Of a stretch of 64,000 nucleotides of DNA, positions 14,667 through 56,356 are shown in pieces. The stretch is from IMG/VR virus record IMGVR_UViG_3300030012_002710, positions 3,718 through 67,717 of that record; one strand, 5' to 3'. Positions within the stretch are counted from its first letter, which is position 1, and each line of letters begins with the position of its first letter. A model generated the notes under the pieces. The model was not told the DNA's origin and searched no databases. It saw only the letters and a list, made by a program, of their open reading frames with translations. The stretch is from a virus. A program made the position numbers and the translations under genes.

Positions 14667-14668
14667 AA

Positions 14669-14947
14669 TTATTTTTCTTTATTTGAATTACAAAAGTTTC
14701 TTGCAGCTTCAACACTGCCAAATCCCCATTTTTTTAGAGCTCTTGCTTTTCTAGTAGGTTTACCTTTAGCATCTTTCATTGCACCAGCCATACCTGCAAA
14801 TCTACAAGCAAAAGAAACTCTTCTTTTATTTTTACCACTGGTTAATCTTTTACCAAGTGTTTTACCTGTTTGACTCTTATGTTCGCTACGCATTTTTCTA
14901 TTTGATTTTTCATACGCGGCATCTGTTAGTTTTAATGGACTTTTCAT
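14669..14947 (-). CDS. small basic protein (RRxSFxCR motif)
   Basis: RRVSFACRFAGM.G.MKD.KG.PTRKA.ALKKW; likely start at ATG 14947. Confidence 0.75.
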   Translation of the reverse strand: MKSPLKLTDAAYEKSNRKMRSEHKSQTGKTLGKRLTSGKNKRRVSFACRFAGMAGAMKDAKGKPTRKARALKKWGFGSVEAARNFCNSNKEK

Positions 14948-14948
14948 A

Positions 14949-15374
14949 TTATTCGCCTTCACATTTTACTTCTTTACATTTGTTTTCACCACAAGTACAT
15001 TTTTTTTCTTTATTATATACTGTATCAAAAGCATTTGCACCAAGAAGTGTTAATTGATCTATTATATTAGTTTGAACTGTAATTAACATTTTTTCTAGTT
15101 CGTCTTTTTGTTGTACTAAATGTTCTACTTTTGATGTTAATCCTTCATTTGCTTTTTTTAGTTCATTAACTTCATCAGGATTTCTACCAATAACAGTCAT
15201 TATTACAACTGATAAGCTACCTACTATCATACCTATTATAGATACAATAACGTCTTTATTTACGCTAGGTATTTCATTATAAGATAAGAATATTAGTATA
15301 CCTACTACAAGCATAAATATACCTATTGCACCAACGTAATGTCTAATTTCTTTTGCTACTCCGTTTTTTACCAT
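14949..15374 (-). CDS. 2-TM membrane protein with coiled coil (possible holin or other lysis protein)
   Basis: Two N-terminal hydrophobic helices followed by a coiled coil; near the endolysin. Confidence 0.65.
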   Translation of the reverse strand: MVKNGVAKEIRHYVGAIGIFMLVVGILIFLSYNEIPSVNKDVIVSIIGMIVGSLSVVIMTVIGRNPDEVNELKKANEGLTSKVEHLVQQKDELEKMLITVQTNIIDQLTLLGANAFDTVYNKEKKCTCGENKCKEVKCEGE

Positions 15375-36254: not shown

Positions 36255-37517
36255 TTAATTAAACGTTCTTTTTTTTATTTTCAATTTTGAAGAATCAAGA
36301 CCACTAACTGCTTTTACTTTTAAACCACCTATAAATACTTCTCCAGATGCTGTTTTACGAGGTTCTGTACTAATATTTTTAGATTTTGCTAATTGTTCTT
36401 TTATTGCATCAGTTTTACCTTGCTCATAAAAGTGATTAGCTATAGTATCAACATTTTGTGCTGCATATAAAGCTTTGTGATAACCAGCTGTGTCTTCAAT
36501 TTCTCCACTTTTGCCTAGAAACTTTCCGACAAAATTAGATAAGTCACTTTGGTTATTTGCAACAGATGAAGGATCTTTTATTCCATATCTAAACTTTTTA
36601 TCTCCTAATTTAAAATCAAAACCTTTGAATTCTGGGTTAAGCATTTGTTTAGTATTAGATACAAATCTTTCATGTCTAGCTTTTTGCTGTTCTCTATCTT
36701 CGTTATAGCGATTAAAAAAGTCTATTGCTTTTTGTTGTTCTTGTGTTACGCCAGGCCTCAACTTGATTTCTGCGTAATAATCTTTTTTAAGACCATCTAA
36801 AAAACTTTTAGCTTTTGCTATTTCTTCCTTGTAAGCGAGTTTTTTCTTTTTAATATCTCGCTCTTCATCGACCTCTTCATCATACTTAAAAGTATCTTCA
36901 ATTATAAAATTAACTTCTTCAGCATTTAAATGAGGTTTTGCTTGCTTGTAATATTCATGTAATAATGCTTCATCATTTACTTTACTATAATCAGCATTAA
37001 GTCTGGCATAATCTTCAATTGATCCACCAGTTTCTTCCATAAATTTTACTAATTTTTCTATGTTTTCAGGTAGCTTTTGTGCTTCTGCTTCCTGTAATAC
37101 TTCTTTTTGTTCCGATGTGGTAGTGGTAGTTTCATTGCTTCCTGCCACTCCTGCCTTGTTAGAATTATCTTCTTCATCTGTAATTTCTTGTAAAGGTGAA
37201 TCAGTTTCTATTTTTTCTTCTGACTCTTTATCTTTAACATCGTCGCTGGACTCTTGTATTTGTTCGTCCACCTTAGGGCTATCTCCGGTTTGTTCGCCCA
37301 CATCCACTTTCTCTGTTTCTCCGATTGAAATGGCATCTTTTTCTTCTTTTTTACTTAAATCTACTTTTGTTACTGTAGGTTTTTGTTTTTCTTGTGACAA
37401 AACTTTAGCTTTTTTAACTTTAAAACTACCTTCTGTTTTAACTTCTTCTACAGGTTTTGCCTCTATTTTTGTTTCTTCTTTTACTTCTTCAACTTTTTTC
37501 GTTTCTTTTTTTGACAT
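36255..37517 (-). CDS. capsid scaffolding protein (acidic)
   Basis: E/K-rich disordered N-terminus; located between portal and capsid. Confidence 0.75.
   Translation of the reverse strand: MSKKETKKVEEVKEETKIEAKPVEEVKTEGSFKVKKAKVLSQEKQKPTVTKVDLSKKEEKDAISIGETEKVDVGEQTGDSPKVDEQIQESSDDVKDKESEEKIETDSPLQEITDEEDNSNKAGVAGSNETTTTTSEQKEVLQEAEAQKLPENIEKLVKFMEETGGSIEDYARLNADYSKVNDEALLHEYYKQAKPHLNAEEVNFIIEDTFKYDEEVDEERDIKKKKLAYKEEIAKAKSFLDGLKKDYYAEIKLRPGVTQEQQKAIDFFNRYNEDREQQKARHERFVSNTKQMLNPEFKGFDFKLGDKKFRYGIKDPSSVANNQSDLSNFVGKFLGKSGEIEDTAGYHKALYAAQNVDTIANHFYEQGKTDAIKEQLAKSKNISTEPRKTASGEVFIGGLKVKAVSGLDSSKLKIKKRTFN
37058..37177 (-). CDS. overprinted +1-frame basic peptide (39 aa) inside scaffold
   Basis: Hand-translated MKKIILTRQEWQEAMKLPLPHRNKKKYYRKQKHKSYLKT*. 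Confidence 0.6.
   Translation of the reverse strand: MKKIILTRQEWQEAMKLPLPHRNKKKYYRKQKHKSYLKT
37208..37336 (-). CDS. overprinted +1-frame basic peptide (42 aa) inside scaffold
   Basis: Hand-translated MPFQSEKQRKWMWANKPEIALRWTNKYKSPATMLKIKSQKKK*; N-terminus resembles that of the free-standing gene 13961-14401. Confidence 0.7.
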   Translation of the reverse strand: MPFQSEKQRKWMWANKPEIALRWTNKYKSPATMLKIKSQKKK

Positions 37518-37545
37518 AATAAAATAATATAAAATTAATAATAAA

Positions 37546-39954
37546 TTATCTTGGGGTAAATTGTTCTAACCCAAAACCATCAAGACTATCGTTATCTGAT
37601 TCAAAATTTTTAGGTAATAAATCATTTTGTCTTTGACTAATAAGTTCACTTTGTTGTGTTCCTTGTATTTTTACTCTTTTATCTTTACGATCTTCGATAG
37701 CTGCTTCTTTTTGTTGTTGTGCTTTAGCTTGTACTTCAGCTAATTGAATATCATAATTAAACTCTTCAGCCATTAATTGTTTTTTAATTAACGCTTCTTG
37801 TTCCATTTTTTGTATTTCAAATTGAGATTTAGCTTGTTCTATTTGTATTTCAGTTTCAGCTAAAGCTTGTTGTTTTTGTACTTCAGCAAGAGCTGCTTTT
37901 TCAGCAGACTCTGCATTAGCTTGAGCTTGAACTTGAATGTTTTCTAATTGTTGTGCTCTATCTTTTTCCTGCTTTTTCTTTTGTCTTAATTTTAAACTTT
38001 GATTAGCAAGTTTACTATTTTTAATTTGTCTTAAATCTATAGCATCTTCTAAACCTATATTTCCAGCTTGCAAAGCTATTTGTATGTTTTGTTCTAATGC
38101 AGCTTTATCTTCTTCTTCTGGTTCGAGTTCTAAATAAATACCAAAATCATGCATACTTAATTTTTGTATTTCTGATAAGGTATTTGTATTAAAAGTATTT
38201 ATACTAGATAATAAACTTTGTCTTGTTAAAGGAAAGTTTAACATATCCGCTACTCTTAAGCTTATATTTTCACAAGTTCTTACAGTTAAATACATTAAAG
38301 ACTGTAGTATATGTCTTGTAGCAGTATTAGAGTTTGCTGCTGCTAATTTTTGTAATCCAACTAAAGCATCTTTTGCTGGTGTTGTTCCATCTCTTGCTTC
38401 ATTTAAACCGGTTACATCACGTATCATTTGTAAATAATATTGATATGTTTGTATCATAGCTGATATTTTACCCATACCATTTGAAGTTTGTAACTCTTGA
38501 ACAGGTACTTTACCTCTATTTATTTCACCATCTTGAGTTAGTGATCTACCAACAATACTACCAGTTTGAAAATACATATTTAATGCCTCGGCTGGATTAT
38601 AATTTGTACCGTTACCTAAATCAACTTCTGCTAAACCATCTACATCTAAATATACACCATCAGGTACCATTCTTGATAACACTTGTTGTAATTTTAAATG
38701 CGTAAGTTGAATCATATCTGCAAAACCTATTGTTTTACTTACAACAGACTCTATTCTACCTTGATACATTCTAGGAGCAGATATAATATAATTCATATTT
38801 ACTTTTGTTGTATCGCCAAAAGGTCTAGTCATATTTTCACTTAATCTCCAATCTAATAAGTTTTTACCTAAACCTAAAACTTTTGCACCTGTATATAAAA
38901 CTTCTATTGATCTACCAACTCTTTCAAAATTATCATTAGGTGGAGGATCAAAAGTATCTGGTTTTTCTAATGTTTTTTCTAAACCTTGATCTGTTTGTTT
39001 TATTTTAAACACTTGATCATGATATGTTTTATATTCAAAATATAAAACTTGAACTTGATCTTTAGTGCTTTGTCCCCACCACGTATTATCAGTGTATGAG
39101 TTTCTACCCGGATATTTTTGTATTTCTTCTAATTCTTTATCACTTAAATAAGGAAACTGTCTTTTAACTTCAGACAAAGACATGTTTTTTACTTCACCTA
39201 CATAATATATATCTTCAAAGTTTGGATCATCAGTATAAGAATATACAATGTTTGCAGGATTTACATAATCAACTGTTACACCTTCTGATAAATTAAAATT
39301 AGTTTTTACACAACCTATTCCTAAAATAGTTAAATCTTGTGCTAATCTTTTTTTAGTTTCATCATATTTATTAAAATCAAGTATATTATTAATAACTTCT
39401 TCTTCAGCTATTTCAACACTTTGTTTATATTTTAATTGTAAATATAATTCTAATTCTTCCGGATCATCTGGTAATGCTTCTGGGTTAGGTGAGTTATAAA
39501 AACTTCTACCAGTTAATTGAGCTAATTGTTGTATAGCCTCTTTATTTTGTATATCTCTTAAAGCATTAAAAGCAAAATTAGTTCTTTCTTGTATAGCAAA
39601 AGGATCTTGAGCATAAGATTTTATTTCATATCCTTTATCTGTCATACCATTAACTACTATATCTACAAATTTAGATAATATAGGAACAGGTTTCCAGTCT
39701 AAATTTAAATAAGATAAATCACCATTAATAGCTAATTCATCTTTGTATTTTTGAACAGGTTGTTCTCCTCTAGCATATAATCTTAATCTGTTAAAATTTT
39801 GAAAATTACTAAGAAATCTATTCTGACCACTACTATTTTTAAACCACTCACCTTCAATAGCTTGTGCTACCTGTAAACCATATTCTCTAGACTTTTTCAC
39901 TTCTTCAGGTACCACCTGATCAGGAAAAGCACTATTATAGTTAATGTTAACCAT
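37546..39954 (-). CDS. portal protein
   Basis: 802 aa directly after terminase; long Q-rich C-terminal barrel helix as in P22-type portals. Confidence 0.85.
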   Translation of the reverse strand: MVNINYNSAFPDQVVPEEVKKSREYGLQVAQAIEGEWFKNSSGQNRFLSNFQNFNRLRLYARGEQPVQKYKDELAINGDLSYLNLDWKPVPILSKFVDIVVNGMTDKGYEIKSYAQDPFAIQERTNFAFNALRDIQNKEAIQQLAQLTGRSFYNSPNPEALPDDPEELELYLQLKYKQSVEIAEEEVINNILDFNKYDETKKRLAQDLTILGIGCVKTNFNLSEGVTVDYVNPANIVYSYTDDPNFEDIYYVGEVKNMSLSEVKRQFPYLSDKELEEIQKYPGRNSYTDNTWWGQSTKDQVQVLYFEYKTYHDQVFKIKQTDQGLEKTLEKPDTFDPPPNDNFERVGRSIEVLYTGAKVLGLGKNLLDWRLSENMTRPFGDTTKVNMNYIISAPRMYQGRIESVVSKTIGFADMIQLTHLKLQQVLSRMVPDGVYLDVDGLAEVDLGNGTNYNPAEALNMYFQTGSIVGRSLTQDGEINRGKVPVQELQTSNGMGKISAMIQTYQYYLQMIRDVTGLNEARDGTTPAKDALVGLQKLAAANSNTATRHILQSLMYLTVRTCENISLRVADMLNFPLTRQSLLSSINTFNTNTLSEIQKLSMHDFGIYLELEPEEEDKAALEQNIQIALQAGNIGLEDAIDLRQIKNSKLANQSLKLRQKKKQEKDRAQQLENIQVQAQANAESAEKAALAEVQKQQALAETEIQIEQAKSQFEIQKMEQEALIKKQLMAEEFNYDIQLAEVQAKAQQQKEAAIEDRKDKRVKIQGTQQSELISQRQNDLLPKNFESDNDSLDGFGLEQFTPR

Positions 39955-42177
39955 CTAATTTAGTATTTTTGAATTTACTCCTTTATTATCATATTTTTTG
40001 AAACCTAAAGGTACAGTTGTTAATTTTCTTTCAGCAACAGGTCTATATCTATTTTTATTACAAGCCATAATAGCAAGACCAGAGCTTATAGAAGCATCAT
40101 GTGATGTTCTATTATTAATGTTAAATTGTGCCCAGTCTTCTAATGTGCGTTGAAAATACATATCACCGTAATTTTCACCATCAAATCCTATAAAATTTTC
40201 TATATAATCTTCTATAGCAGCTGCATGAGCTTGTTTTATATCTTCACTAGAATTAGGTATTCCACCTATCTCTCTTTCTGTTACAGATAATTTATTATAT
40301 ATTTTATCAGGTCTATTCATTGAATAACCTCTATAACCTCTACGTTTTAAATAATATAAAAGTCTAGGTTTGTTATTTTCTGCAAGTATAGGCATACCGT
40401 AAAATACAATTGCCATTAAAACATCTTCAAAAAATATTTCTGCAGTTTGTGGTCTAGCTATATACTCTAAAAAAAATGTATTAGGCGGAACATCCGCCAT
40501 TGTAAACTTAGTTAAACCATGTAAAGATCCTTTAGATCCTCTACCGTCAACAGTTCCTGATATATCATATGGATCACAACCAAAAGCACCACAGTCTTCA
40601 TTAGCTGGATATTTTATACCATTTTTAACTATATATCTATTTTGTAAATTAATAGGTGGTGTCCATGAAATAAAAAATCTACCACTGTTATTAGGAACAA
40701 ATATAACTCTAGTATCTTTAATCCCACTTTCCCATTGAAAATTACCTTGTGTAATTGCTGTAGAGTGTTTTAAATCTTCATTATAATCTATTTGTTCATA
40801 AATTTTTGCAAGATTAAATAAAGATTCTTTAGCTTCATCTCTAAAAGCATGTTTTTCTGTTCTTGGAAATTGTCTATATAATTCGTTTAAACCGTCTTGA
40901 TCATCTTTTAAACCTTCAACTTCGTTTTCCCAGTGTGATATAACCCCGATCTCAATTGTTGTTCCATCGATGCTTTTAACTGGTTTTTCTGGTGTGTCGA
41001 ATACAGGAAAGCCATAAGTATCGATGTATCCTTCGTAGTTCCATTCCATAGGTATGAACAAAGAATATAATCCTGAACCAGTCTGTCCGTTGCGGTTTCT
41101 TTTTGTAACGTCTGAAGCATCATATAGTTTTTTAAAATTAGCACCACCTTTATCTAAAGCATTAGAGGTAGAACCCATCATACATTTACCTACAATCCTA
41201 CTTCCAAGTCTTAACGTTGTCTTCGTGACCCTCCAGTTGTTGAGGATGTTGTCCGGTCTCTCCCATTTACCCGACTCATCATGGGCGAGTAACCTGAGTT
41301 TCTCCCCGTCGTAGGAGTTGTCACCGGTATTCTTCCAGTCAATGGTAGTATCGAGCCCGATGAGTTCCTCGGGGGTGTCGTTCTGCTCGATCTTACGGCG
41401 GGTGAACTTCGATGCCGGTACCCTGTATGCCAACTCAGTCTTTGGCCTGTCCATACCGTCCTGAATTGGTTTGAAAAAAAACGGGTAGTTGACCGATATG
41501 GGTACCACTTTATCTGTGAACATCTTCTTTGCATCTGCACCAGTCTTGGATAAAATGCCATACCTGGAGTCAGCGGAAATTGTAGCTTGATGAACGAGTT
41601 CTGAGGATGCCATGAAGCTAAAGCCAGACCGTCTATTCTTGAGGTAACACATTCCATAGGATCTATGATCCAACTTACACGCTTCCCAGAATATAAAGAA
41701 TAAGCGGTTTGATTCTCTGAACTGCGCAGAGCCAACGTCAATTTTTGTCCACTGCAAGTACATATAATGAGAGCCAGTAATGTAAGTAGGAATACCTTTG
41801 TTATAGAAGCTAAAGCCTTGTTCCCTTCTTTTAAACTCTTCATCAATATAATCATACCATTTATTTTTAAAATCAAGCGATGTTTGATTCCAATCAAAAA
41901 CAGTTTTTAATTTAGTTAATTGTTTTGGATAATCAAAAACCTCCCAATATTGCTCTTGTTTTTTATTAGATCTTTTATACGTTTTTTCTAGTAAAGGTAA
42001 AGCTATTTTTAAACCTTGTATTTCATATATTTCACCAATTTTACCAGTTTTACTTATAATAATAACATCATATTCTTTATTATAACCTGGTTCCCATTTA
42101 TTATATCTATTATTTCTAGCTATAATTTTTGGTTTTATATGATTATCTAAAACTTTATATAATGTTTGTTTATACAT
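39955..42177 (-). CDS. terL: terminase large subunit
   Basis: Walker A-like LKNRRSGFS, Walker B LAHDESGK, GST coupling motif, nuclease GCDPYD, ENNK and HD motifs. Confidence 0.92.
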   Translation of the reverse strand: MYKQTLYKVLDNHIKPKIIARNNRYNKWEPGYNKEYDVIIISKTGKIGEIYEIQGLKIALPLLEKTYKRSNKKQEQYWEVFDYPKQLTKLKTVFDWNQTSLDFKNKWYDYIDEEFKRREQGFSFYNKGIPTYITGSHYMYLQWTKIDVGSAQFRESNRLFFIFWEACKLDHRSYGMCYLKNRRSGFSFMASSELVHQATISADSRYGILSKTGADAKKMFTDKVVPISVNYPFFFKPIQDGMDRPKTELAYRVPASKFTRRKIEQNDTPEELIGLDTTIDWKNTGDNSYDGEKLRLLAHDESGKWERPDNILNNWRVTKTTLRLGSRIVGKCMMGSTSNALDKGGANFKKLYDASDVTKRNRNGQTGSGLYSLFIPMEWNYEGYIDTYGFPVFDTPEKPVKSIDGTTIEIGVISHWENEVEGLKDDQDGLNELYRQFPRTEKHAFRDEAKESLFNLAKIYEQIDYNEDLKHSTAITQGNFQWESGIKDTRVIFVPNNSGRFFISWTPPINLQNRYIVKNGIKYPANEDCGAFGCDPYDISGTVDGRGSKGSLHGLTKFTMADVPPNTFFLEYIARPQTAEIFFEDVLMAIVFYGMPILAENNKPRLLYYLKRRGYRGYSMNRPDKIYNKLSVTEREIGGIPNSSEDIKQAHAAAIEDYIENFIGFDGENYGDMYFQRTLEDWAQFNINNRTSHDASISSGLAIMACNKNRYRPVAERKLTTVPLGFKKYDNKGVNSKILN
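40908..41123 (-). CDS. candidate second +1-frame overprinted protein inside terL (71 aa from ATG 41123)
   Basis: Stop-free +1 frame coinciding with a second GC-elevated patch of terL. Confidence 0.4.
   Translation of the reverse strand: MMLQTLQKETATDRLVQDYILCSYLWNGTTKDTSILMAFLYSTHQKNQLKASMEQQLRSGLYHTGKTKLKV
41211..41843 (-). CDS. overprinted +1-frame putative lipoprotein inside terL
   Basis: 228-codon open frame (41211-41897); signal-like KVFLLTLLALIICTC; R/S/T/P-rich tail; about 55% GC counted over 41281-41400 vs 22-27% in sampled flanking terL. Confidence 0.7.
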   Translation of the reverse strand: MKSLKEGNKALASITKVFLLTLLALIICTCSGQKLTLALRSSENQTAYSLYSGKRVSWIIDPMECVTSRIDGLALASWHPQNSFIKLQFPLTPGMAFYPRLVQMQRRCSQIKWYPYRSTTRFFSNQFRTVWTGQRLSWHTGYRHRSSPAVRSSRTTPPRNSSGSILPLTGRIPVTTPTTGRNSGYSPMMSRVNGRDRTTSSTTGGSRRQR

Positions 42178-42449
42178 TATCTTGATCTACCTTCTGCAAA
42201 ACCTCCAAACGTTGAAGCTTTACTATTTTTATTTGTAGAGTTAATCATATTTTCTTCTTCTTCTATTCTAGTTAATATTTCAAAGGCATCAAATATAGCT
42301 AACTTTTTAGTAGCAGCAGCATTTTTTAATCTATCAGCTGATACATCATCTTCTGAATCTACTATTTTTTCTTTAGCTACTTTTATTAATTCTTCAACCG
42401 CTTTTTGCCCAGCTTGGATTATACGCAGCTTTGTTTTTTTTGTTTCCAT
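42177..42449 (-). CDS. helical protein, possible terminase small subunit
   Basis: 90 aa, coupled to the terL start. Confidence 0.55.
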   Translation of the reverse strand: METKKTKLRIIQAGQKAVEELIKVAKEKIVDSEDDVSADRLKNAAATKKLAIFDAFEILTRIEEEENMINSTNKNSKASTFGGFAEGRSR

Positions 42450-42996
42450 ATTTAACTAAAATATCATTTGATTCCATACAATATAAAAGTTCATTATTAA
42501 TAATAAACTCAAATTCACGTTGACTTTTAAACCCTACTAAGTCTCCTACGTTTATTTTAAACGTTTCTAATGTATTATTACCATATTTTAGTATTCCAGT
42601 ATTCTTTAATAATTTTTGATTACTAGAAGTGTTATTTTCTAAAACAGGTTTTACAAAACAATATTCAGCTTGAGTACGCCAACCATTGTTATAATACATG
42701 TAAATTTGTGATGGGTGAGCAAAATAAAGATTATCTTTAAAATATTTTGTACTGTTTACAGACTTACCTTTCATATTATAGTATCTTCTAAATAAATTAT
42801 GATGTACTATAACGTGATCTCCTTTTTTAATTTTTGTTTTGTATTCTAGTGGAACACTTACAACTTCAGCTTCTCTGTTTACAAATTTATGACTTGATAT
42901 GCTAGAATTAACAATTAGTTCACAACCTTCTATATTAATTTTATTTTTATATCTTTCACCTACAGGTTTAATTATAAATTGATATAAACTATTCAT
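42394..42996 (-). CDS. tandem GroES-like (co-chaperonin fold) protein
   Basis: Two repeats: FIIKP...VVSV...IKKGDHV and FVKP...VGDLVGF...EF.I..E.LY.M.SNDIL. Confidence 0.55.
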   Translation of the reverse strand: MNSLYQFIIKPVGERYKNKINIEGCELIVNSSISSHKFVNREAEVVSVPLEYKTKIKKGDHVIVHHNLFRRYYNMKGKSVNSTKYFKDNLYFAHPSQIYMYYNNGWRTQAEYCFVKPVLENNTSSNQKLLKNTGILKYGNNTLETFKINVGDLVGFKSQREFEFIINNELLYCMESNDILVKYGNKKNKAAYNPSWAKSG

Positions 42997-44119: not shown

Positions 44120-44500
44120 TTACTTTACTTTGTCTTTTATTTTTTCATATGTTCTTAAACCTCCTAAACCAAGCATACCTAATAATACAGTCATTAAGTG
44201 TTCCATTTGTAACGGAGGTGGTACATCTGCAGCTTTTGTTATCCATATAAATAAATCTCTAATAACAAAATTATATGCTAATGCAAAACCACATATCCAA
44301 CCTACAAAAGGTCGCCACCCCGCAACGAACAAAGTTCTATGCGAGGCTTCAACCATATTAATTTTTGTTTGTAATTCAATAAGTTTTTCTGGATCTAATT
44401 CTTTGCCTTTTATTGCTTCTCTTATTTCCCAAGCTAAGCCACCAGCAACTGATTTTCTTCCGTCACCGCCTTTTAAAAGACCTAAAATTAATTTCCACAT
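44120..44500 (-). CDS. holin (3TM, GTA-holin-like)
   Basis: FVAGWRPFVGWICG..LAY and LLGMLGLGGLRT.EK motifs. Confidence 0.85.
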   Translation of the reverse strand: MWKLILGLLKGGDGRKSVAGGLAWEIREAIKGKELDPEKLIELQTKINMVEASHRTLFVAGWRPFVGWICGFALAYNFVIRDLFIWITKAADVPPPLQMEHLMTVLLGMLGLGGLRTYEKIKDKVK

Positions 44501-48454: not shown

Positions 48455-48711
48455 AAAACAACAACAACATCTTGTAATTTAATTACAATAAATTTTTCTT
48501 TTTCAAATTCAATACCGTGCCCTGCATGACGATCATAAAATATATTATCATCTTTTTTTATAGTTGTTATATCATCACTAACTGATACAACTTTAGCTTT
48601 TCTGTATCTTATATCTTCCCTATCTTTTTCTATTATAAGTAAACCACCTTTTGTTTTATCAGTTTTTACTTTTTCAGGAATTATTATTATATTATTACCT
48701 ACTGCCTTCAT
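48451..48711 (-). CDS. groES: co-chaperonin GroES
   Basis: KT.GGLLI mobile loop, KVVSV, I.YD..AG..I...KF.VI...DVV. Confidence 0.88.
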   Translation of the reverse strand: MKAVGNNIIIIPEKVKTDKTKGGLLIIEKDREDIRYRKAKVVSVSDDITTIKKDDNIFYDRHAGHGIEFEKEKFIVIKLQDVVVVL

Positions 48712-50248
48712 TAATTCTTAAATTATTAATTACACAATCAGTTGATAATATTGTTGTAGCTACAGATGCAGCATTAACAAGAGCACTTTTTGTAACAAGT
48801 AAAGGATCAATAATACCTGCTTTAATCATATTTACAGTTTTACCTGTAACAACATTTAATCCTTCACCTTTATTTTTAACTAAGCTTTCTGTATAATCTA
48901 TACCTGCATTATCTAAAATAACTTTAAATGGATATGTTATAGCATTTAATAATACCAGTTCAGCTTCGTTTTTTGTTTTAATATGTTGTGATGCGTTTAA
49001 AAGCGCTATACCACCACCAGGTACAATACCTTCTTTAATAGCAGCTTTTGTTGCACATATAGCATCTTCTATTCTATCAGATTTTTCTTTTAATTCTATA
49101 TCTGAATTTGCACCTACTTTTACTATTGCTATTTTAGCTGATAATCTAGCTAATCTTTTTTCAAGCCTTATAACATGTGCAGGTGAGGGTAAACTTGCTA
49201 AATCTTTTTTTACTTTATTTATAAGTGATAATACTTCATCACTTGGATCACCAACTTGTATTATGGTATCTTTTTCATCTGTTGTAGATTTTAAACAACT
49301 ACCTAAAAATTCTGGTTGTATTAAATCCATATCATCACCTAAGTCTTCATTAATGACAGTAGCTCCTGTAAGCAAAGCTAAATCATCTAATGTTTCACGT
49401 TTATTAACACCATATGTTGGTGCATTTACAATATTTACTTTAATATTACCTTTTGTTTTATTCATGGCAAGTGTAGCCATTACTGGTGCTTCTACATCTG
49501 CTATTATAAGTAAAGGTATGTTTTTCTTTATAACGTGTTCTAATACAGACTGTATTTGTCTTATATTTTCAACTGGTGATTCTATAATTAAAACAGCAGG
49601 TTTTTCAAGTTCTGCAGTTTTCTTTTCTTTATTTGTAATAAAATGTGGATTAGTTAATCCTTTATTATATTGAACACCATCAACTAGCTCTACATCTGTT
49701 TCTGGCATTGATGAATGTTCCATCATCACTACACCTGTTTGACCTACAGCTCTAAAAGCATCACCTATAATTTTTCCAAGCTCAGGATCATTATTTGTAG
49801 ATATACTAGCTATTTGATCAATCATATCACCTTTTACAGGTATAGATATATCTTCTAAATATTTAAGTACTTTTTTAACTGCTTTATTAATGTTTTCTTT
49901 TAATTGTCTAGAATTTACATTAACATTTTTTGCTAAACTTATTATAGCATGAGCAAGTACAGTTGCGGTAGTAGTACCATCACCAGCTTCATTTACTGTT
50001 TTTCGTGCTGCTTCTTTTAATAAAGTAGCACCCATATTTTCTACAGGATCTAATAAAACTATTGAATTTGCTACAGTAACACCATCTTTTGTAATCATTG
50101 GTTTACCTTGATCATCTTCAAGTAATACACATTTACCGCTAGCTCCTAAAGTAGAGCTAACGGCTTGTGTGAGTTTATCAATTCCTTTAAATACTTGATT
50201 TTGAGCATTTTTGCCAAAATTAAGATTTTTGACTATTAAGTCTGACAT
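48695..50248 (-). CDS. groEL: chaperonin GroEL
   Basis: TKDGVTVA, AGDGTTTATVLA, EGIVPGGG, GIIDP motifs; no GGM tail. Confidence 0.95.
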   Translation of the reverse strand: MSDLIVKNLNFGKNAQNQVFKGIDKLTQAVSSTLGASGKCVLLEDDQGKPMITKDGVTVANSIVLLDPVENMGATLLKEAARKTVNEAGDGTTTATVLAHAIISLAKNVNVNSRQLKENINKAVKKVLKYLEDISIPVKGDMIDQIASISTNNDPELGKIIGDAFRAVGQTGVVMMEHSSMPETDVELVDGVQYNKGLTNPHFITNKEKKTAELEKPAVLIIESPVENIRQIQSVLEHVIKKNIPLLIIADVEAPVMATLAMNKTKGNIKVNIVNAPTYGVNKRETLDDLALLTGATVINEDLGDDMDLIQPEFLGSCLKSTTDEKDTIIQVGDPSDEVLSLINKVKKDLASLPSPAHVIRLEKRLARLSAKIAIVKVGANSDIELKEKSDRIEDAICATKAAIKEGIVPGGGIALLNASQHIKTKNEAELVLLNAITYPFKVILDNAGIDYTESLVKNKGEGLNVVTGKTVNMIKAGIIDPLLVTKSALVNAASVATTILSTDCVINNLRINEGSR

Positions 50249-50642: not shown

Positions 50643-52505
50643 TTATGTTATACCATATTTACCTTTTTGATCATCATATTTAGTATCTAATTCACTTGTT
50701 GTAAATATTTTATCATAAGCTCTTATTTCTCCTAAATAACCATAACCCCCATATACACCACCACCATCACTCATTAAATTAATATCAGTATCTGTTGTAT
50801 ATTGTGGTGAAACAGTGGTTGTGCTTGTAACATTATAATTTGTTTTTCCAGGTTGATAACGGTTTATACTCCATTGGTTATTTGGAAAATCATAACCAAT
50901 AACATACATAAACCAATCAGAAGTAGTAACACTTGCAACATAACCAGAGTTAAAATCTGCATTTCTTGATGTATCATAAACAAAATTATTGAAACCTTGC
51001 GTGCTTGGTCTATAATATCTAACAGCGGCTTGTGCTGTACTAGTACCAGTTGTATTTCCATATAAAATAGTATTTAAACCAGAAGTACCTGAGGCAATAG
51101 AGCTCATTCTTATCCAAAACAAAAATGTTAATACGTTTCCTGATTTTAAACTTAATGCTCCTCCATGTGTGGCGCTTGGTATTTGAAAATAATCAGCTCT
51201 ACTTGATAAATCTAAATAAGTTGCGCCATTTACACTTCCGGTAGAAGGAACAGTAGTAACTATTGTTGCATCATAATTATTAGCACTTAAATCAAACCAA
51301 GTTGAACCACTTCCAGTCCAAGATAAAGAACTATTAGCATCTAACCATAATATTTGATTTGCTTCTAACTTTGGTGGTTGACCAGGTATATATTCATCTG
51401 CTATTTGTTTCCACGTAGTCCCATTATAAAACTCTACAAGCTTATCTGTTGTGTTATATCTAAATTCACCTGTTGAAGGTTGTGGTGCAGAACTAGTTGT
51501 AAATTGTATAATTCCACTTGTACCCGCTGTAAATGTTGTAATTTTAGTATTTGCTACAGACGTAGAATCTGTGGTGAATGTTAACACACTAGTTGTTTCT
51601 ACTATAGTGTATTCATCAGAATATCGTAATATTACAACTCCAGATCCTCCAGATCCTGAACTTCCACCTATAGTTTGATTAGGATGTGCTCCACCTCCTC
51701 CACCTGTATTTGCAGTTCCATCTTGAGCATTACCAGTTCCTTCACTTTTGCCTCTACCATTTCCTCCTCCATCGGAACCTGTTCCAGCTGAACCACTTGA
51801 AAGATTACTTGAACCACCACCACCTCCAGCGCGTAAAACAGGTGATCCAGTTATAGATGATGATAAACCACTACCACCATTTGTTCCAACACCTAAAGTA
51901 CTTACAGCAAGGGATGCGCTTCCAGCTCCTCCACCACCAACACCACCTTCTTGATTAACAGTTGCACCTAAAGCATTACCGTCTCCTGCATTAAACCCTT
52001 GTGTGGGTGTTACTGCAGTTCCTCCAGTATAAAAATTACCAGCATAATTAGAAGCTCCACCACCTGAACCTCCATCTCCAGGTGCTTGTGCGGAAAGACC
52101 ACCGCCACCGCCACCTCCACCAGTAGAGGTAATTTGATCAAATATTGAGTCATCTCCATCAGCACCATGATTAGCTGAAGCACCAGTTACTCCAGATCCA
52201 CCTTCTCCAACAGTTACATTATATGAAGTGTTTGTAGATAACGAAAGAGTTGTTTCTACAGGTTGTAAACCACCGCTAATATTTCCAGATCCAAATGATG
52301 TTCTATAACCTCCAGCTCCACCACCACCGGCTCCTCTGTTACCACCTCCGCCTCCACCACCAGCAATTACTAAAAAATCAACACTAAAATTTCCTGGTCT
52401 TTCTGCTGTTGTTCCTTTAGGTAATATTACACCTTCTGTATTTTCTGAAGTTAAAGTTTCTCCTGGTAAATCAATTAAAACTGGTGTTGTTATTTTTGTT
52501 GACAT
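50643..52505 (-). CDS. glycine-rich fibre protein with C-terminal LamG/ConA-like domain
   Basis: VDFLVIAGGGGGG...GSGVVILRY; LWLDAN...WFDLS...IRAYD. Confidence 0.75.
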   Translation of the reverse strand: MSTKITTPVLIDLPGETLTSENTEGVILPKGTTAERPGNFSVDFLVIAGGGGGGGNRGAGGGGAGGYRTSFGSGNISGGLQPVETTLSLSTNTSYNVTVGEGGSGVTGASANHGADGDDSIFDQITSTGGGGGGGGLSAQAPGDGGSGGGASNYAGNFYTGGTAVTPTQGFNAGDGNALGATVNQEGGVGGGGAGSASLAVSTLGVGTNGGSGLSSSITGSPVLRAGGGGGSSNLSSGSAGTGSDGGGNGRGKSEGTGNAQDGTANTGGGGGAHPNQTIGGSSGSGGSGVVILRYSDEYTIVETTSVLTFTTDSTSVANTKITTFTAGTSGIIQFTTSSAPQPSTGEFRYNTTDKLVEFYNGTTWKQIADEYIPGQPPKLEANQILWLDANSSLSWTGSGSTWFDLSANNYDATIVTTVPSTGSVNGATYLDLSSRADYFQIPSATHGGALSLKSGNVLTFLFWIRMSSIASGTSGLNTILYGNTTGTSTAQAAVRYYRPSTQGFNNFVYDTSRNADFNSGYVASVTTSDWFMYVIGYDFPNNQWSINRYQPGKTNYNVTSTTTVSPQYTTDTDINLMSDGGGVYGGYGYLGEIRAYDKIFTTSELDTKYDDQKGKYGIT

Positions 52506-52507
52506 AT

Positions 52508-54268
52508 TTATAAATTAGTAAAGTCTTTATATCCTGTTGCAGTATAATGTTCCATTTGCCCTAATGTAGTATTACATCTTAACATACCTATTTCAGCACC
52601 TGGTTCAGCATCTGCTTTTTGAAAAGTTATATTACCTGAACCCTCTTTAAATACAATAGTATCTGTCGTTCCGTTTGTAAACTTAGTTTGATATGCGACT
52701 TCATTATATAGATCTGTAACTTGATCTGAAGATAAAGTTGTATTAAAATATCTAAGTTGATCTATAGCTCCATTCCAAAAATATGATCCACCTTGATATG
52801 ATCCTATTCTTACATCGCCAGTATTAGTATTTACAGCAGAGCCAAAAGTGTTTGAATCTGCTACAGCTCCATTTAAATACAATATACAACCAGTTCCTGC
52901 AGAATCAACAGTTAATACAACGTGATACCACGTATTAAGAGTAATTGATGAAGTAGTAAGTTGTGAATATGAAGGATTATATAATGTAAAATATAAAATA
53001 GAACCATTTGTCCATACTCCATAAGATTCAGGACTACCTTTTTGAAACAACCAAGCATTACCTGAATTATTAGAGTTAATCCACAAACTTATGCTTTGAG
53101 ATGCTGTTAAATCAAAATTAGAATTATCTGGTAAAAATATATTAGAACTTGATCCATTAAGTTGTGCTGCATTTCCATATTTACCAGCTGCATATGTTAT
53201 ATTACTACTTGATACACCATTGTAATTTCCACAAGTGTCATTTATATTATCATTAAATTGATATAAAGCTTGACATCCAGCTCCTGTAGGATAATTGCAC
53301 GTTGATGTAGTCATTGTAGTTATAGGAGCTACTAATGTTCCATCAACTGTAACACTATTAACTACAGTATTATCATATTTTAATATTACTACACCAGAAC
53401 CGCCATCACCACCAGTAGAATCTGAACTACCTGTAACGCCGCCTCCGCCGCCACCTCCCGAATTTTCCAAAGCACTTGTTCCTCTTACACCTGCTGTTTG
53501 GCTACCGGTTCCACCTCCTCCGGATCCTCCAGTTCCACCTATAACATTACCACCAGTACCAATTGCGCTTCCTGAATCATCTCCGCCTCCGCCTCCGCCG
53601 CCTCCGGCAAAAAATACACTTGTTCCACCTACTATTTCACCAACACTAGCATCAGTTGCGTTAGAAACACTTATAAAAGATGTCATATTAGTGCCGCTTC
53701 CACCATTACCACTTTGATTAGCTGAACTACTATTACCTACGCCATTTGTGTCTGATAAAGGGTTACCTGACCCACCACCTCCGCCTGTAGCCCATTTATA
53801 TGATGTATTACTATTACCTCCATTATTGCCTTGCCCAGTAATACCTGATCCTCCAACATAAGCTGTTGAATTACTAAAAACACCAGCTCCTGCACCTGAA
53901 CCACCTGGTCTACCATCTCCTCTTCTTTGTCCAGATCCACCACCTACCGCTCTTAATCCTGCAAAACCAGAATCAAGACCATTAGGTTGATTATTTGTTA
54001 ATGTTGTATCTGCTGTAGCACCTTCACCAACTGTTAATACAACAGAGCTTCCTGATGCAACAGATGTTGTACCTGTTAAAAGACCACCAGCACCGCCACC
54101 GCCTGATCCACTTCCTGAAGCAGTACCACCACCACCTACAATAAGATAATCTATATCAAATGATGAGGTTGGTTGCTGTGCTGTAGTACCTGCACAACCT
54201 TTTAATGCATTTGTAGAACCTGATTGGTTTAAATCGATAAGATCATTTATTACTTTTATTATTGCCAT
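52508..54268 (-). CDS. glycine-rich fibre protein with internal LamG domain
   Basis: IDYLIVGGGG; NTWYHVVLT...LYLNG...G.IDQLR.FN..LS. Confidence 0.75.
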   Translation of the reverse strand: MAIIKVINDLIDLNQSGSTNALKGCAGTTAQQPTSSFDIDYLIVGGGGTASGSGSGGGGAGGLLTGTTSVASGSSVVLTVGEGATADTTLTNNQPNGLDSGFAGLRAVGGGSGQRRGDGRPGGSGAGAGVFSNSTAYVGGSGITGQGNNGGNSNTSYKWATGGGGGSGNPLSDTNGVGNSSSANQSGNGGSGTNMTSFISVSNATDASVGEIVGGTSVFFAGGGGGGGGDDSGSAIGTGGNVIGGTGGSGGGGTGSQTAGVRGTSALENSGGGGGGGVTGSSDSTGGDGGSGVVILKYDNTVVNSVTVDGTLVAPITTMTTSTCNYPTGAGCQALYQFNDNINDTCGNYNGVSSSNITYAAGKYGNAAQLNGSSSNIFLPDNSNFDLTASQSISLWINSNNSGNAWLFQKGSPESYGVWTNGSILYFTLYNPSYSQLTTSSITLNTWYHVVLTVDSAGTGCILYLNGAVADSNTFGSAVNTNTGDVRIGSYQGGSYFWNGAIDQLRYFNTTLSSDQVTDLYNEVAYQTKFTNGTTDTIVFKEGSGNITFQKADAEPGAEIGMLRCNTTLGQMEHYTATGYKDFTNL

Positions 54269-54274
54269 ATTTTA

Positions 54275-56356
54275 TTATTCTGAAAATGCCATAAATAAAT
54301 ATTGATTACCTGCATCATTATAACCTGAGTCTGTGGTTACAATTTCAAAGCCATAGTCTAAAAAATTTACTGCAGATAAAGTATCTTCAGTACTAGTAGT
54401 GTTTGGGTATAATATTTTATTTCTAGGATTAGTTGTAGATCTTTTATTATCTAATATATACCAATATTTTGTTGTACTTACATTTCTTACAAGTAACCAT
54501 GCTGGTTTAAATCCTGTATATATTTGGTTACCACTAGTTGTATCAGTTCCTATATAATAACCTATTTGAGAATACCCTGGAATTGAAGCAAAACAATATG
54601 CTATATAATTTGTAGAACTATTATTATAATCACTAAAAGTACCATTTATACCAAAAGTAGTACTTGTTATATTAGTCCAAGGAGGATCTGAAGGATAATC
54701 AGCCGGTGGAGCATCACTATTAAGATACATATAATAATCAGTACCTGTTGTTGAACTGTATGTAATCCAATTACCTGTAGTATTAAGGGATTTTATAAAT
54801 ATAAGTTCTGGTGTTACTCCTAATCCATGTGGTACTGTGCTTGCTGTACTTGTACCTTGATACTTTATTATACTAAAACCAGTTTCTGTATTAACTGAAG
54901 ATCCAGTTGGTGTTATAGTTCCTGCTGTAAGACCTGCTGCAGCTGCTGATGCATAACCTGTTCCATTTTTATTAAAAGTGTTTGAATTACCACCTGCTTT
55001 CCATGACCAACCTACATAATCACCTCTACCAGAATAATTAACTAAACCAACTGTATCACTACCTAATGTAAAACCAGTAGCATTAAAAGAAGTTAGTGTA
55101 GTGTTATTATTTGCCTCTGCATTAGTAGAATTAGGTTGTATGTATTCACCTGCTCCTCTAACTGAATCAAATGATATATGTGGTTCACAGCATTTTTGAT
55201 AATCTTTAATCCATACAAAATCTGGTTGAAAACCTGTTACAATATTATGTGGTGCCGCTTGATAACTCCATAAATTAGTTGTAAAATTATTAGATGGAAT
55301 AATACCTACATCTTGACCTGTTTGTTGTAATGCTCTCCAACCTGTAGTACCAGTGTAAACTTCCATTTTACCAGTAGTAGTATTTTCTCTTAAAGTACCT
55401 TCAACTGGTGATGCTCCTCCAGTAAATACAATAGTACCTGTGCCAGCTGTAATTTTAATATATTTTTCATCTGTACCAATATTAGTCTCTGTACCTGCGG
55501 CACCGCCAGTACCTGCGGTATATGTAGCTGTATGACTATCACTATATCTTAAAATAATAATACCATCACTACCATTACCTCCTACGCCATCTTGACCACC
55601 ACCACCTCCACCACTACCAGTGTTAGTAACTCCATTTGTTCCAGGGTTTTTATGTTTTCCACCATTACCACCAATACTGCTTCCTCCAGCTCCATTAGAT
55701 GTTCCTGGATCCCAAGAACCACCACCACCACCGCCAGCATAGAAACTATTTGCTCCATCTATATTATTTTGTACTCCATCACCTCCATTTCCTGGACTAT
55801 TATAAACTCCTGTAGCTCCAGTGGAACCAGCTCCACCGCCTCCACCACCAGTCCAATCGAGACTACCACTATAACCACCTCCTCCAGCATTACCTTCAGA
55901 ACCTGTTCCTGCAGCGCCGCCACTAGCACCGGATTTTCCACCGCCACCTCCGCCAGAACCACCTATTTTAGCAACACCTATAGTATTATATCCACCACCA
56001 CCTCCACCAGTTGCGGTAATTGTAGTTAATCCACCACCAGAAATAAATGAGTTGTCTCCACTAGTACCTGCTCCTGCAGTTGCTGGACTTCCACTTGAAC
56101 TACCATTTCCACCATCACCTACAGTTACAGTGTAAGTAGTACCTAAAGCTAATGTTACAGTGCTAGCTAAATAACCTCCGGCACCACCACCTCCTCCAGA
56201 TCCATCAGCACCATAACCACCACCTCCGCCGCCAGCTACAACTAAATATTCTACTGAAACAGAACCTGGTCTTTGAGCTGTAGTACCTGTTGGTATTTCA
56301 AGGGCAGTTGTGTCTGCACTTAAATCTATATTATCTGTTATTATTTTAGTGGCCAT
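54275..56356 (-). CDS. glycine-rich fibre protein with C-terminal beta-rich domain
   Basis: VEYLVVAGGGGG; GFQPDFVWIK, GFSII.Y.G, HGLG..P, GFKPAWL. Confidence 0.75.
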   Translation of the reverse strand: MATKIITDNIDLSADTTALEIPTGTTAQRPGSVSVEYLVVAGGGGGGYGADGSGGGGGAGGYLASTVTLALGTTYTVTVGDGGNGSSSGSPATAGAGTSGDNSFISGGGLTTITATGGGGGGYNTIGVAKIGGSGGGGGGKSGASGGAAGTGSEGNAGGGGYSGSLDWTGGGGGGAGSTGATGVYNSPGNGGDGVQNNIDGANSFYAGGGGGGSWDPGTSNGAGGSSIGGNGGKHKNPGTNGVTNTGSGGGGGGQDGVGGNGSDGIIILRYSDSHTATYTAGTGGAAGTETNIGTDEKYIKITAGTGTIVFTGGASPVEGTLRENTTTGKMEVYTGTTGWRALQQTGQDVGIIPSNNFTTNLWSYQAAPHNIVTGFQPDFVWIKDYQKCCEPHISFDSVRGAGEYIQPNSTNAEANNNTTLTSFNATGFTLGSDTVGLVNYSGRGDYVGWSWKAGGNSNTFNKNGTGYASAAAAGLTAGTITPTGSSVNTETGFSIIKYQGTSTASTVPHGLGVTPELIFIKSLNTTGNWITYSSTTGTDYYMYLNSDAPPADYPSDPPWTNITSTTFGINGTFSDYNNSSTNYIAYCFASIPGYSQIGYYIGTDTTSGNQIYTGFKPAWLLVRNVSTTKYWYILDNKRSTTNPRNKILYPNTTSTEDTLSAVNFLDYGFEIVTTDSGYNDAGNQYLFMAFSE

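What the first reader, a model, noticed from the sequence alone, without database searches (positions are those of the whole stretch)
41211..41897. Putative lipoprotein overprinted on the terminase ATPase domain
Seen: a 228-codon open +1 frame. GC is 66/120 over 41281-41400, versus 27/120 (42001-42120) and 32/120 (40321-40440) elsewhere in terL. From ATG 41843 it reads MKSLKEGNKALASITKVFLLTLLALIICTCSG (basic n-region, hydrophobic core, Cys), then an aromatic-rich middle and an R/S/T/P-rich tail (RSSRTTPPRNSSG...GGSRRQR). Known: nested out-of-frame lipoproteins exist in phages (Rz1 inside Rz), but normally inside the i-spanin gene. Inference: an outer-membrane lipoprotein, possibly a spanin component or superinfection-exclusion factor. 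No conventional spanin pair is recognisable elsewhere in the window.
Basis: partly seen in the sequence, partly recalled or inferred. Interest (0 to 1): 0.85.

Follow-up and report, generated by a model that had tools for sequence, protein, structure and literature searches.

The report
Hidden membrane-protein gene inside phage terminase gene
A second protein-coding gene, read one base out of step, lies inside the DNA-packaging (terminase) gene of a widespread group of uncultured marine phages; it appears to encode a small membrane-anchored, disordered protein of unknown role and is a clear case of a new gene written over an old one.

Summary
It is not chance and not a recombination tract. In a fixed core (terL codons 115-255), 59 of 81 TerL homologues (74-90% aa identity) have no +1 stop, against 0.8 expected from local synonymous shuffles. 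A second set gave 26 of 29 against 0.22. The +2 frame carries 19-42 stops (ORF region) in every sequence of the first set. The GC rise sits at terL third positions and ends where the +1 frame ends in each lineage. Homologues without the frame show no rise. In carriers, terL synonymous sites are fixed so that the +1 frame reads a Leu-rich transmembrane helix (Thr134 is ACT in 60/60 against 5/20).

The likely product (ATG 41855, 214 aa) is a short basic N-terminus, one TM helix, a C-T-C motif and about 180 basic S/T/R-rich disordered residues. No known family matches.

The lipoprotein/spanin reading is not supported: 0/60 have a canonical lipobox, and the first Cys is forced by terL Met-Tyr codons. 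Function is unknown; I favour a late membrane-acting accessory protein. There is no direct evidence of expression.

The parts
39955..42177 (-). terL (terminase large subunit), 740 aa; the older host frame
   Evidence: phrog_6681 E 1.4e-164. Annotated as terL in relatives. 109 further homologues (80 + 29 new) at 73-90% aa identity.
41211..41897 (-). The reported +1-frame ORF: 228 codons from TTG, 231 codons stop to stop, stop codon included
41211..41855 (-). Most likely CDS of the overprinted gene: ATG 41855 (terL codon 108, +1 frame) to the stop at 41211-41213, 214 aa. Alternative start at ATG 41843 (codon 112, 210 aa).
   Evidence: ATG at codon 108 in 49/60 carriers, at 112/113 in 8 more, and only TTG at 115 in 3. 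Tyr108 is TAT in 49/51 carriers whose frame is open there, against 14/20 non-carriers.
41760..41816 (-). Transmembrane helix of the product (residues 14-32)
   Evidence: Maximum Kyte-Doolittle 19-mer is 2.37. terL third positions are T in 51-60 of 60 carriers at codons 130, 131, 133, 134 and 136, giving Leu in +1; non-carriers have T in 2-12 of 20. Mean KD is 2.21 against 0.37 for resampled synonymous codons, and 75/12000 resamples reach the observed value. AF2 predicts a helix with pLDDT 65-75.
41754..41762 (-). C-T-C motif at the end of the helix (residues 32-34)
   Evidence: The first Cys is forced by terL ATG-TAY. Thr (Tyr140 = TAC in 57/60 against 10/20) and the second Cys (Leu141 ends in G in 56/60 against 10/20) are selected in carriers. 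C-x-C is present in 56/60. It is less constant in the basal clade.
41214..41747 (-). Basic, S/T/R/G/K/P-rich, predicted disordered region (residues 37-214)
   Evidence: AF2 with a 59-sequence alignment gives pLDDT <50 for 36-214 except residues 161 and 177. Tail composition is T17 S13 R12 G8 K8 %, and median net charge of the whole protein is +20. Length varies between lineages: the frame ends at terL codons 249-272, 294 or 312-324.
41211..41815 (-). GC3-rich patch of terL (codons about 121-322; peak 41220-41460 at 52-56% GC)
   Evidence: GC3 is 0.72-0.75 at codons 241-320 with normal GC at positions 1 and 2. The rise ends with the +1 frame in each lineage.

Best explanation
This is a genuine overprinted gene. 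A second protein-coding frame was born inside terL, +1 relative to it, in the ancestor of a clade of uncultured marine phages related to podoviruses of Flavobacteriia. Selection has kept it since, and several lineages have lost it.

Shown:
- The frame is kept free of stops far beyond chance.
- terL pays through its synonymous sites. They shift to C/G wherever the +1 frame runs, which turns would-be stops and Ile/Leu/Phe into Ser/Thr/Pro/Arg/Gly. They are fixed as T where the +1 frame needs Leu in a transmembrane helix.

Inferred:
- The gene is translated from the late terL mRNA by internal initiation at ATG 41855, in an AT-rich stretch.
- The 214-aa product has a short basic N-terminus, one TM helix ending in C-T-C, and about 180 residues of very basic, disordered polypeptide. 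It would insert into the host cytoplasmic membrane late in infection.
- Topology is open. The flanking charges are +3 on the N side and about +1 to +3 on the C side. They slightly favour N-in/C-out, while the strongly basic tail argues the other way.

Function is unknown. My odds, given that the gene is real:
- about 35% a lysis-timing or envelope-disruption factor (holin/antiholin-like: one TM plus a charged hydrophilic C-terminus)
- about 20% superinfection exclusion or envelope modification
- about 10% a lipoprotein/spanin-like role
- about 15% a membrane tether for nucleic acid
- the rest something else
For: Stop avoidance
- +1 frame open for at least 140 codons in 60 of 81 TerL sequences; the +2 frame has 19-42 stops in the same region in all 81.
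- Fixed core (codons 115-255): 59/81 have zero +1 stops against 0.80 expected under local synonymous shuffles.
- Carriers show 1 stop against 190.6 expected. Control regions, and non-carriers in the core, give observed/expected 0.83-1.01.
- Replication on 29 new TerL sequences: 26/29 against 0.22 expected.

GC3 follows the frame
- Frames ending at codons 249-272 (n=21): GC3 0.24 and 0.22 over codons 273-294 and 295-322.
- Frames ending at 294 (n=13): 0.69 and 0.27.
- Frames ending at 312-324 (n=26): 0.65 and 0.61, then 0.19 at 323-350.
- Non-carriers: 0.15-0.25 across the ORF region (codons 91-350).

Site-specific selection
- Thr134 is ACT in 60/60 carriers against 5/20 non-carriers. Leu-coding T at four more codons; Thr and Cys of the C-T-C motif.
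- TM hydropathy is far above resampled codons.

Distribution and origin
- Carriers occupy all deep clades of the TerL tree. Non-carriers are nested, and at least 6 changes are forced.
- Five more distant phages (TerL 37-63% identical) have no such frame and no GC3 rise.
- No hit in Pfam, PHROGs, NCBIfam or the ESM Atlas.
- Exhaustive HMMER finds only about 152 clusters of the same short family.

Other
- Public gene callers already predict it: 154 unnamed proteins.
- The 5 population variants inside the frame in seawater metagenomes give R>K, R>K, A>A, A>G and A>V, with no stop.
Against: - There is no direct evidence of translation. Two RNA-library contigs at 99% identity or more cover 41510-41848, but the tool warns that DNA can be present in such libraries.
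- Beyond the TM helix there is no position-specific constraint. Pairwise synonymous difference in terL is higher, not lower, across the frame (0.50-0.60 against about 0.40). Column-wise codon entropy relative to shuffles (0.89-0.94) is no lower than in control regions (0.88-0.93) or in non-carriers. Only openness, composition and the helix are demonstrably selected.
- The +1 proteins are only 32-53% identical to the window's, and AF2 finds no fold.
- 25 of 110 homologues lack the frame, so it is dispensable.
- 3 of 60 carriers have no ATG before the helix.
- The tree is FastTree, rooted on one long outgroup branch, so 'ancestral gain plus losses' is tentative.
Confidence: 0.82

Rival explanations
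1. The open frame is a by-product of a GC-rich tract brought in by recent recombination from a higher-GC relative. Fewer AT-rich stop codons then leave a long frame open by chance.
For: The window has the strongest GC3 of the set (0.72-0.75). Sister pairs such as L068 and L076 differ sharply in regional GC (0.44 against 0.29), which suggests that whole alleles are exchanged.
Against: The GC3 rise is family-wide in carriers and stops at each lineage's own frame end. Shuffles that keep the local codon composition still predict 3-9 stops per sequence, and none is seen. The +2 frame in the same GC-rich DNA keeps 19-34 stops. The more GC-rich outgroup MW202828 (GC3 about 0.4 throughout) has no open frame of 60 codons or more.
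Confidence: 0.03
2. Selection acts on something other than a functional protein. Candidates are a nucleic-acid element, or translation of the +1 frame for its own sake (for example to tune TerL synthesis), with the product only kept harmless.
For: There is no site-specific constraint beyond the helix, the product is disordered, and the frame is dispensable in 25/110 homologues.
Against: Variation at terL third positions in the helix is T/C at sites that read I/T or V/A, but is T only where Leu is needed. That is a protein-level pattern, not a nucleotide-level one. A harmless by-product would be removed most simply by an early stop, as in non-carriers, yet carriers keep 141-220 codons open across deep divergence.
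Confidence: 0.08
3. The product is an outer-membrane lipoprotein, either an o-spanin-like component or a lipoprotein exclusion factor.
For: The architecture is basic N-region, hydrophobic core, then Cys. Given terL's Tyr codons, only Thr or Ile is possible at the residue before each Cys. Carriers prefer the smaller Thr before the second Cys (55/60 against 10/20), as if approximating a lipobox under constraint. The tail is rich in S/T/P. No spanin hit was found among the 35 window ORFs scanned.
Against: 0/60 have a canonical lipobox and 2/60 match a PROSITE-like pattern. The first Cys is forced by terL. The second Cys is replaced by Tyr or Ser in part of the basal clade. The product is much longer than Rz1-type o-spanins (recalled) and is not nested in or beside an i-spanin gene.
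Confidence: 0.1
4. The +1 frame is reached by programmed ribosomal frameshifting from terL. The product would then be a fusion of the TerL N-terminus (about 110 residues) with the +1 polypeptide, not an independently initiated protein.
For: Three carriers lack an ATG before the helix. Some database proteins join the TerL N-terminus to the +1 frame (P0006, P0061, P0107).
Against: 57/60 carriers have ATG at codons 108-113. In 26/60 the +1 frame opens only at codons 102-114, just upstream of that ATG, which leaves almost no room for a shift site. The chimeric database proteins also switch back into the terL frame (P0046, P0070, P0092), as expected from error-tolerant gene callers rather than biology (the cause is my inference). 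I did not look for a slippery motif.
Confidence: 0.04

Closest known systems
Rz1 nested in Rz of phage lambda; T7 18.7 in 18.5
   Same: A complete gene nested out of frame inside another late phage gene, and the nested product is rich in S/T/P-type residues. The T7 record confirms that 18.7 lies inside 18.5, next to the terminase genes.
   Different: The host gene here is terL, not an i-spanin gene. There is no canonical lipobox (0/60). The product is 141-220 aa with a long basic disordered tail. No partner protein is known. The properties of Rz1 are recalled, not tested here.
T7 genes 19.2 and 19.3
   Same: These are ORFs annotated inside the terminase large-subunit gene, both +1 relative to it by my arithmetic on the record's coordinates (38016-38273 and 38553-38726 inside 37370-39130). 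This is the only precedent I could verify for a nested ORF in terL.
   Different: They are short (85 and 57 aa) and annotated only as hypothetical proteins. I saw no evidence of selection or expression for them. Their sequences show no TM-plus-tail architecture and no resemblance by eye.
Holins, especially single-TM class III such as T4 gpT (recalled)
   Same: Small late proteins with one TM segment near the N-terminus and a long, charged, hydrophilic C-terminal part. The sizes are similar (T4 T is about 218 aa, recalled).
   Different: There is no sequence or profile similarity to any PHROG or Pfam holin family. The gene is not beside the endolysin-like gene (13611-13976). The phage already has a holin-family gene (44120-44500, phrog_3427). 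The tail is disordered rather than a folded periplasmic domain.
De novo overprinted viral proteins in general
   Same: Narrow phylogenetic spread compared with the host frame, a biased composition, predicted disorder, fast evolution (32-53% identity against 74-90% for TerL), and accessory or dispensable status. Reviews appeared in my search listing (PMC8227390, PMC6195259; listing and abstract starts only).
   Different: Most documented cases are in small RNA or ssDNA viruses. Here the frame lies in a 68-kb dsDNA phage, where space is not limiting, and it leaves an unusually clear GC3 footprint.

Membership tests
Overprinted (out-of-frame nested) protein-coding gene | The alternative frame is kept open across diverged homologues beyond chance | tested here: met
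   59/81 against 0.80 expected; replication 26/29 against 0.22 expected. Controls give observed/expected 0.83-1.01.
Overprinted (out-of-frame nested) protein-coding gene | Selection on amino-acid properties of the alternative frame, seen at the host gene's synonymous sites | tested here: met
   Leu codons of the TM helix, Thr and Cys of C-T-C, the hydropathy test, and GC3 following the frame's extent. Not met for site-specific constraint in the tail.
Overprinted (out-of-frame nested) protein-coding gene | Conserved start codon | tested here: met
   ATG at terL codons 108-113 in 57/60; only TTG at 115 in 3/60.
Overprinted (out-of-frame nested) protein-coding gene | The product is expressed | not testable with these tools
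   Only contigs from two RNA libraries cover part of the frame, and these are not proof of transcription. No proteomic or ribosome-profiling data are available.
Bacterial lipoprotein / o-spanin (Rz1-like) | Lipobox [LVI][ASTVI][GAS]C at the end of a signal peptide | tested here: not met
   0/60 canonical; 2/60 PROSITE-like; the residue before Cys is T or I. SignalP/LipoP are not available.
Bacterial lipoprotein / o-spanin (Rz1-like) | Nested in, overlapping or adjacent to an i-spanin gene | tested here: not met
   The host gene is terL. The neighbours are the portal gene and a 90-aa ORF.
u-spanin (T1 gp11-like) | N-terminal lipoprotein signal plus a C-terminal TM segment | tested here: not met
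   The only strongly hydrophobic 19-mer in the five carriers checked is N-terminal, and the C-terminus is basic and hydrophilic. The definition of the family is recalled.
Holin | At least one TM segment, small size and a charged hydrophilic C-terminus | tested here: met
   One TM segment, 141-220 aa, median net charge +20. These features are not specific to holins.
Holin | Membership of a known holin family, or a position in a lysis cassette | tested here: not met
   No PHROG, Pfam or NCBIfam hit. The endolysin-like gene is 27 kb away.
Holin | Timed, lethal permeabilisation of the membrane | not testable with these tools
   Needs expression and complementation experiments.

The most novel reading that the evidence does not exclude
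terL of this globally distributed marine phage clade is a gene nursery. A 141-220-aa membrane protein was born de novo in its +1 frame. It has since been lengthened or shortened in steps (frame ends at codons about 250-272, 294 and 312-324) and lost at least six times, and it does a late, membrane-directed job (lysis timing or exclusion) whose synthesis is physically tied to that of the packaging motor. A second +1 stretch about 20 codons downstream (terL codons about 345-400, window 40978-41143) is open in 77/81 sequences, non-carriers included. It has near-invariant synonymous sites and may be a second, older overlapping element.
Probability: 0.4. Interest if true: 0.85.

Novelty: new variant of a known kind. 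Interest (0 to 1): 0.78.

Why it matters
Standard annotation forbids long nested genes in dsDNA phages, so they are thought to be rare. This one is supported by a natural experiment. Within a single gene family there are about 85 carriers and about 25 non-carriers, and a compositional footprint (third-position GC) switches on and off exactly with the hidden frame. That gives:
- a clean, datable case of de novo gene birth and repeated loss in a large phage genome
- a simple signature for finding more such genes: a local GC3 island inside a conserved gene of an AT-rich genome
- a new, unannotated family of phage membrane proteins, present in seawater metagenomes of at least 8 studies, in a group whose lysis and exclusion systems are poorly known

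It also explains why error-tolerant gene callers produce chimeric 'TerL' proteins for these phages in public databases.

Tried and rejected
- Family searches on the +1 protein found nothing: Pfam, PHROGs, NCBIfam and ESM Atlas.
- AF2 of the +1 protein with 59 homologues gave pLDDT 41 and only the N-terminal helix, so no fold search was made.
- Mapping the overlap onto the TerL ATPase domain failed. phmmer and a 25-sequence profile against the PDB gave 0 hits. The AF2 TerL model had pLDDT 45 and was too poor for a fold search, so none was run.
- A synonymous-rate test was expected to show reduced variability in the overlap. It showed the opposite, and a column-entropy test showed no excess constraint beyond the helix. 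Both are reported as evidence against.
- Cultured relatives (Flavobacterium elemo phages, Cellulophaga phi19:3 and phi38:1, Maribacter Panino) and MW202828 were checked as possible experimental models. None carries the frame.
- RNA libraries: only small shares, held as contigs, which cannot show transcription start, strand or level.
- RNA structure for the second conserved stretch (codons 355-400): consensus energy -3.56 kcal/mol with negligible covariation, so no support.
- Literature: two full-text searches returned nothing on a gene nested in terL. I saw only listings and abstract starts and read no paper. Supplementary files were not consulted.
Full report
**What is there**

The window is most of a 67.7-kb viral record from IMG/VR, rated 100% complete. 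It has 31.8% GC. Its terL (39955-42177, minus strand, 740 aa; phrog_6681, E 1.4e-164) sits upstream of the portal gene.

Inside terL, offset by one base, the ORF listing finds the reported ORF 41211-41897 (228 codons from TTG).

The GC rise is carried by terL third codon positions. GC3 is 0.72-0.75 at codons 241-320, against 0.03-0.15 in most of the gene. Positions 1 and 2 are ordinary. So the TerL protein is not unusual here; its choice of synonymous codons is.

**Comparative test**

The search for related loci gave 80 TerL homologues from viral contigs, 74-90% identical in protein. I codon-aligned them to the window.

- 60 of the 81 sequences ('carriers') have the +1 frame open for at least 140 codons over the same region.
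- 20 ('non-carriers') have 9-17 stops there, and one is intermediate.
- The +2 frame has 19-42 stops in every sequence.

I then fixed a core region in advance (terL codons 115-255).

- 59 of 81 sequences have no +1 stop there. Shuffling synonymous codons within that region of each sequence, which keeps its amino acids and local codon usage, predicts 0.80 such sequences.
- Carriers have 1 stop in total against 190.6 expected.
- The same test on three control regions of terL, and on non-carriers in the core, gives observed/expected 0.83-1.01, so the null model is sound.
- A second scan seeded with the most distant homologue brought 29 TerL sequences not in the first set. 26 have no core stop against 0.22 expected.
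- For the window alone, block-wise shuffles reach a 231-codon opening in 0.1-0.6% of trials.

**The GC patch is the footprint of the frame, not its cause**

Carriers fall into groups by where the +1 frame ends. GC3 over terL codons 273-294, 295-322 and 323-350 is as follows.

| Frame ends at codon | n | 273-294 | 295-322 | 323-350 |
|---|---|---|---|---|
| 249-272 | 21 | 0.24 | 0.22 | 0.25 |
| 294 | 13 | 0.69 | 0.27 | 0.21 |
| 312-324 | 26 | 0.65 | 0.61 | 0.19 |
| non-carriers | 20 | 0.23 | 0.21 | 0.21 |

A terL third position is the middle base of the +1 codon. T there gives Ile/Leu/Phe/Val/Met. A there gives stops or Lys/Asn/Gln. C or G gives Ser/Thr/Pro/Ala/Arg/Gly.

For example, TerL D-N-I-L-N-N-W reads T-T-S-S-T-T-G in the window's +1 frame. 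In AT-rich non-carriers the corresponding stretch reads mostly Ile and Tyr or Phe, with a stop at terL codon 312 in 18 of 20. A stop-free, hydrophilic +1 polypeptide therefore demands a GC3 island.

The recombination-tract idea fails for two reasons. The island is family-wide, and its edges are frame-specific.

**Selection on residues**

- At Thr134, which is four-fold degenerate, all 60 carriers use ACT, giving Leu in +1. Non-carriers use A13, C2 and T5.
- Codons 130, 131, 133 and 136 are T in 51-59 of 60 carriers.
- Sites that read I/T or V/A vary freely between T and C.
- Tyr140 is TAC in 57/60 against 10/20, giving Thr.
- Leu141 ends in G in 56/60 against 10/20, giving Cys.
- The helix segment has mean hydropathy 2.21 against 0.37 for resampled synonymous codons, and 75 of 12000 resamples reach the observed values.

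They say nothing about the +1 product.

**Evidence that cuts the other way**

- Past the helix I found no site-specific constraint. Pairwise synonymous difference is higher in the overlap (0.50-0.60) than outside it (about 0.40).
- Column-wise codon entropy relative to shuffles is no lower than in controls.
- The +1 proteins are 32-53% identical to the window's.
- AlphaFold2 with 59 homologues predicts only the N-terminal helix (pLDDT 65-75). Nearly everything from residue 36 on is below 50.

So openness, composition and the helix are selected, which is what one expects of a disordered tail. But there is no fold and no direct proof of translation. Contigs from two RNA libraries match 41510-41848 at 99% or more, and the tool cautions that this does not show transcription.

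**The product**

ATG at terL codon 108 (window 41855) is present in 49/60 carriers. ATG at codon 112 or 113 is present in 8 more, and three have only TTG at 115.

From 41855 the product is 214 aa:
- a basic N-terminus (net +3)
- a TM helix (residues 14-32)
- the C-T-C motif
- about 180 residues rich in T, S, R, G, K and P

Median net charge across the family is +20, and lengths run from 141 to 220 aa.

**Distribution and origin**

- On a FastTree TerL tree rooted with MW202828, carriers fill every deep clade, including the basal one. Non-carriers are nested, and starred branches force at least 6 changes.
- The outgroup (62.6% identical) and four cultured relatives (Flavobacterium elemo, Cellulophaga phi19:3 and phi38:1, Maribacter Panino; 37-45% identical) have no such frame and no GC3 island.
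- No family library or atlas recognises the protein.
- A word-seeded profile search finds 154 unnamed predicted proteins from ENA, JGI and NCBI metagenome calls.
- An exhaustive HMMER search of 1.84 billion representatives finds 152 clusters, all of the same short family or fragments of it.
- 6 of the 11 proteins I fetched were frame-switch chimeras with TerL. I take these to be artefacts of error-tolerant gene callers; that is inference.

I read this as de novo birth in the clade's ancestor, followed by repeated loss or allele replacement. The rooting makes the order of events tentative.

**Function**

A lipoprotein or o-spanin is not supported. No carrier has a canonical lipobox, the host gene is not an i-spanin gene, and there is no C-terminal TM segment.

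The phage has ordinary lysis candidates elsewhere:
- an endolysin-like peptidase (13611-13976, phrog_894)
- a holin-family protein (44120-44500, phrog_3427)
- a two-TM protein with a helical tail (14949-15374)

No spanin hit appeared among the 35 ORFs I scanned.

The architecture (one N-terminal TM segment and a long charged hydrophilic C-terminus, made late) is closest to holin/antiholin-type or exclusion proteins. That is a resemblance only, and my odds are given under the best explanation.

The one verified precedent for nested ORFs in a terL is T7 genes 19.2 and 19.3. Both are +1 to gene 19 and annotated as hypothetical.

**Literature**

Two full-text searches found nothing on a gene nested in terL. 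I saw listings only. What I say about Rz/Rz1, T4 holin T, general holin features and Bacteroidota translation initiation is recalled.

**Verdict**

This is a real and unusually well-supported overprinted gene of unknown function. It is a new variant of a known kind.

Noticed in passing
window 40908-41147 (-), terL codons about 345-400; near-invariant nucleotide block about 41020-41061: A second +1-frame stretch just downstream of the first is open in 77/81 TerL sequences, non-carriers included, against 36.5 expected (4 stops against 53.0 expected). Synonymous sites are almost fixed in all 81: Pro376 CCT 81/81, Tyr381 TAC 81/81, Tyr384 TAC 80/81, Tyr371 TAT 80/81. GC3 is raised in all groups at codons 351-400 (0.34-0.37). 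It could be a second short overlapping ORF (79 aa in the window) or a nucleic-acid element. RNAalifold gives no structural support (-3.56 kcal/mol). The outgroup MW202828 keeps it only in part.
   Followed up: partly
window 50643-56356 (-): Three adjacent paralogous genes (620, 586 and 693 aa) share an N-terminal phrog_2295 module. The third also matches tail-fibre and virion structural families. They hold further GC-rich patches (42-47% GC at 51501-52500, 53501-54000 and 55501-56000) with antisense ORFs of 140-145 aa (53295-53717 and 55592-56029, plus strand). I did not test these for selection.
   Followed up: no
window 12002-12697 (-): A 231-codon antisense ORF lies inside the ribonucleotide reductase large-subunit gene (11817-13535, phrog_84), in a 40% GC patch. 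It is probably a by-product of the GC-richer, conserved RNR gene. Not tested.
   Followed up: no
window 42394-42996 (-) and 48695-50248 (-): The phage encodes its own GroES-like co-chaperonin (phrog_13932, E 2.5e-24) just upstream of terL, and a GroEL-like chaperonin (phrog_5725, E 1.9e-132).
   Followed up: no
window 14401-14962 (-) and 13961-14401 (-): A run of small, extremely basic K/R/G-rich ORFs (40-146 aa) lies between the endolysin-like gene and the 2311-aa virion protein. Next to them, at 14949-15374, is a two-TM protein with a helical tail and a Cys-rich end, which is a possible holin or spanin-like candidate.
   Followed up: no
database proteins P0006, P0046, P0061, P0070, P0092, P0107: Public metagenome gene calls for these phages include chimeric proteins that switch between the terL frame and the +1 frame. 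This shows that the hidden frame misleads frameshift-tolerant gene finders.
   Followed up: partly
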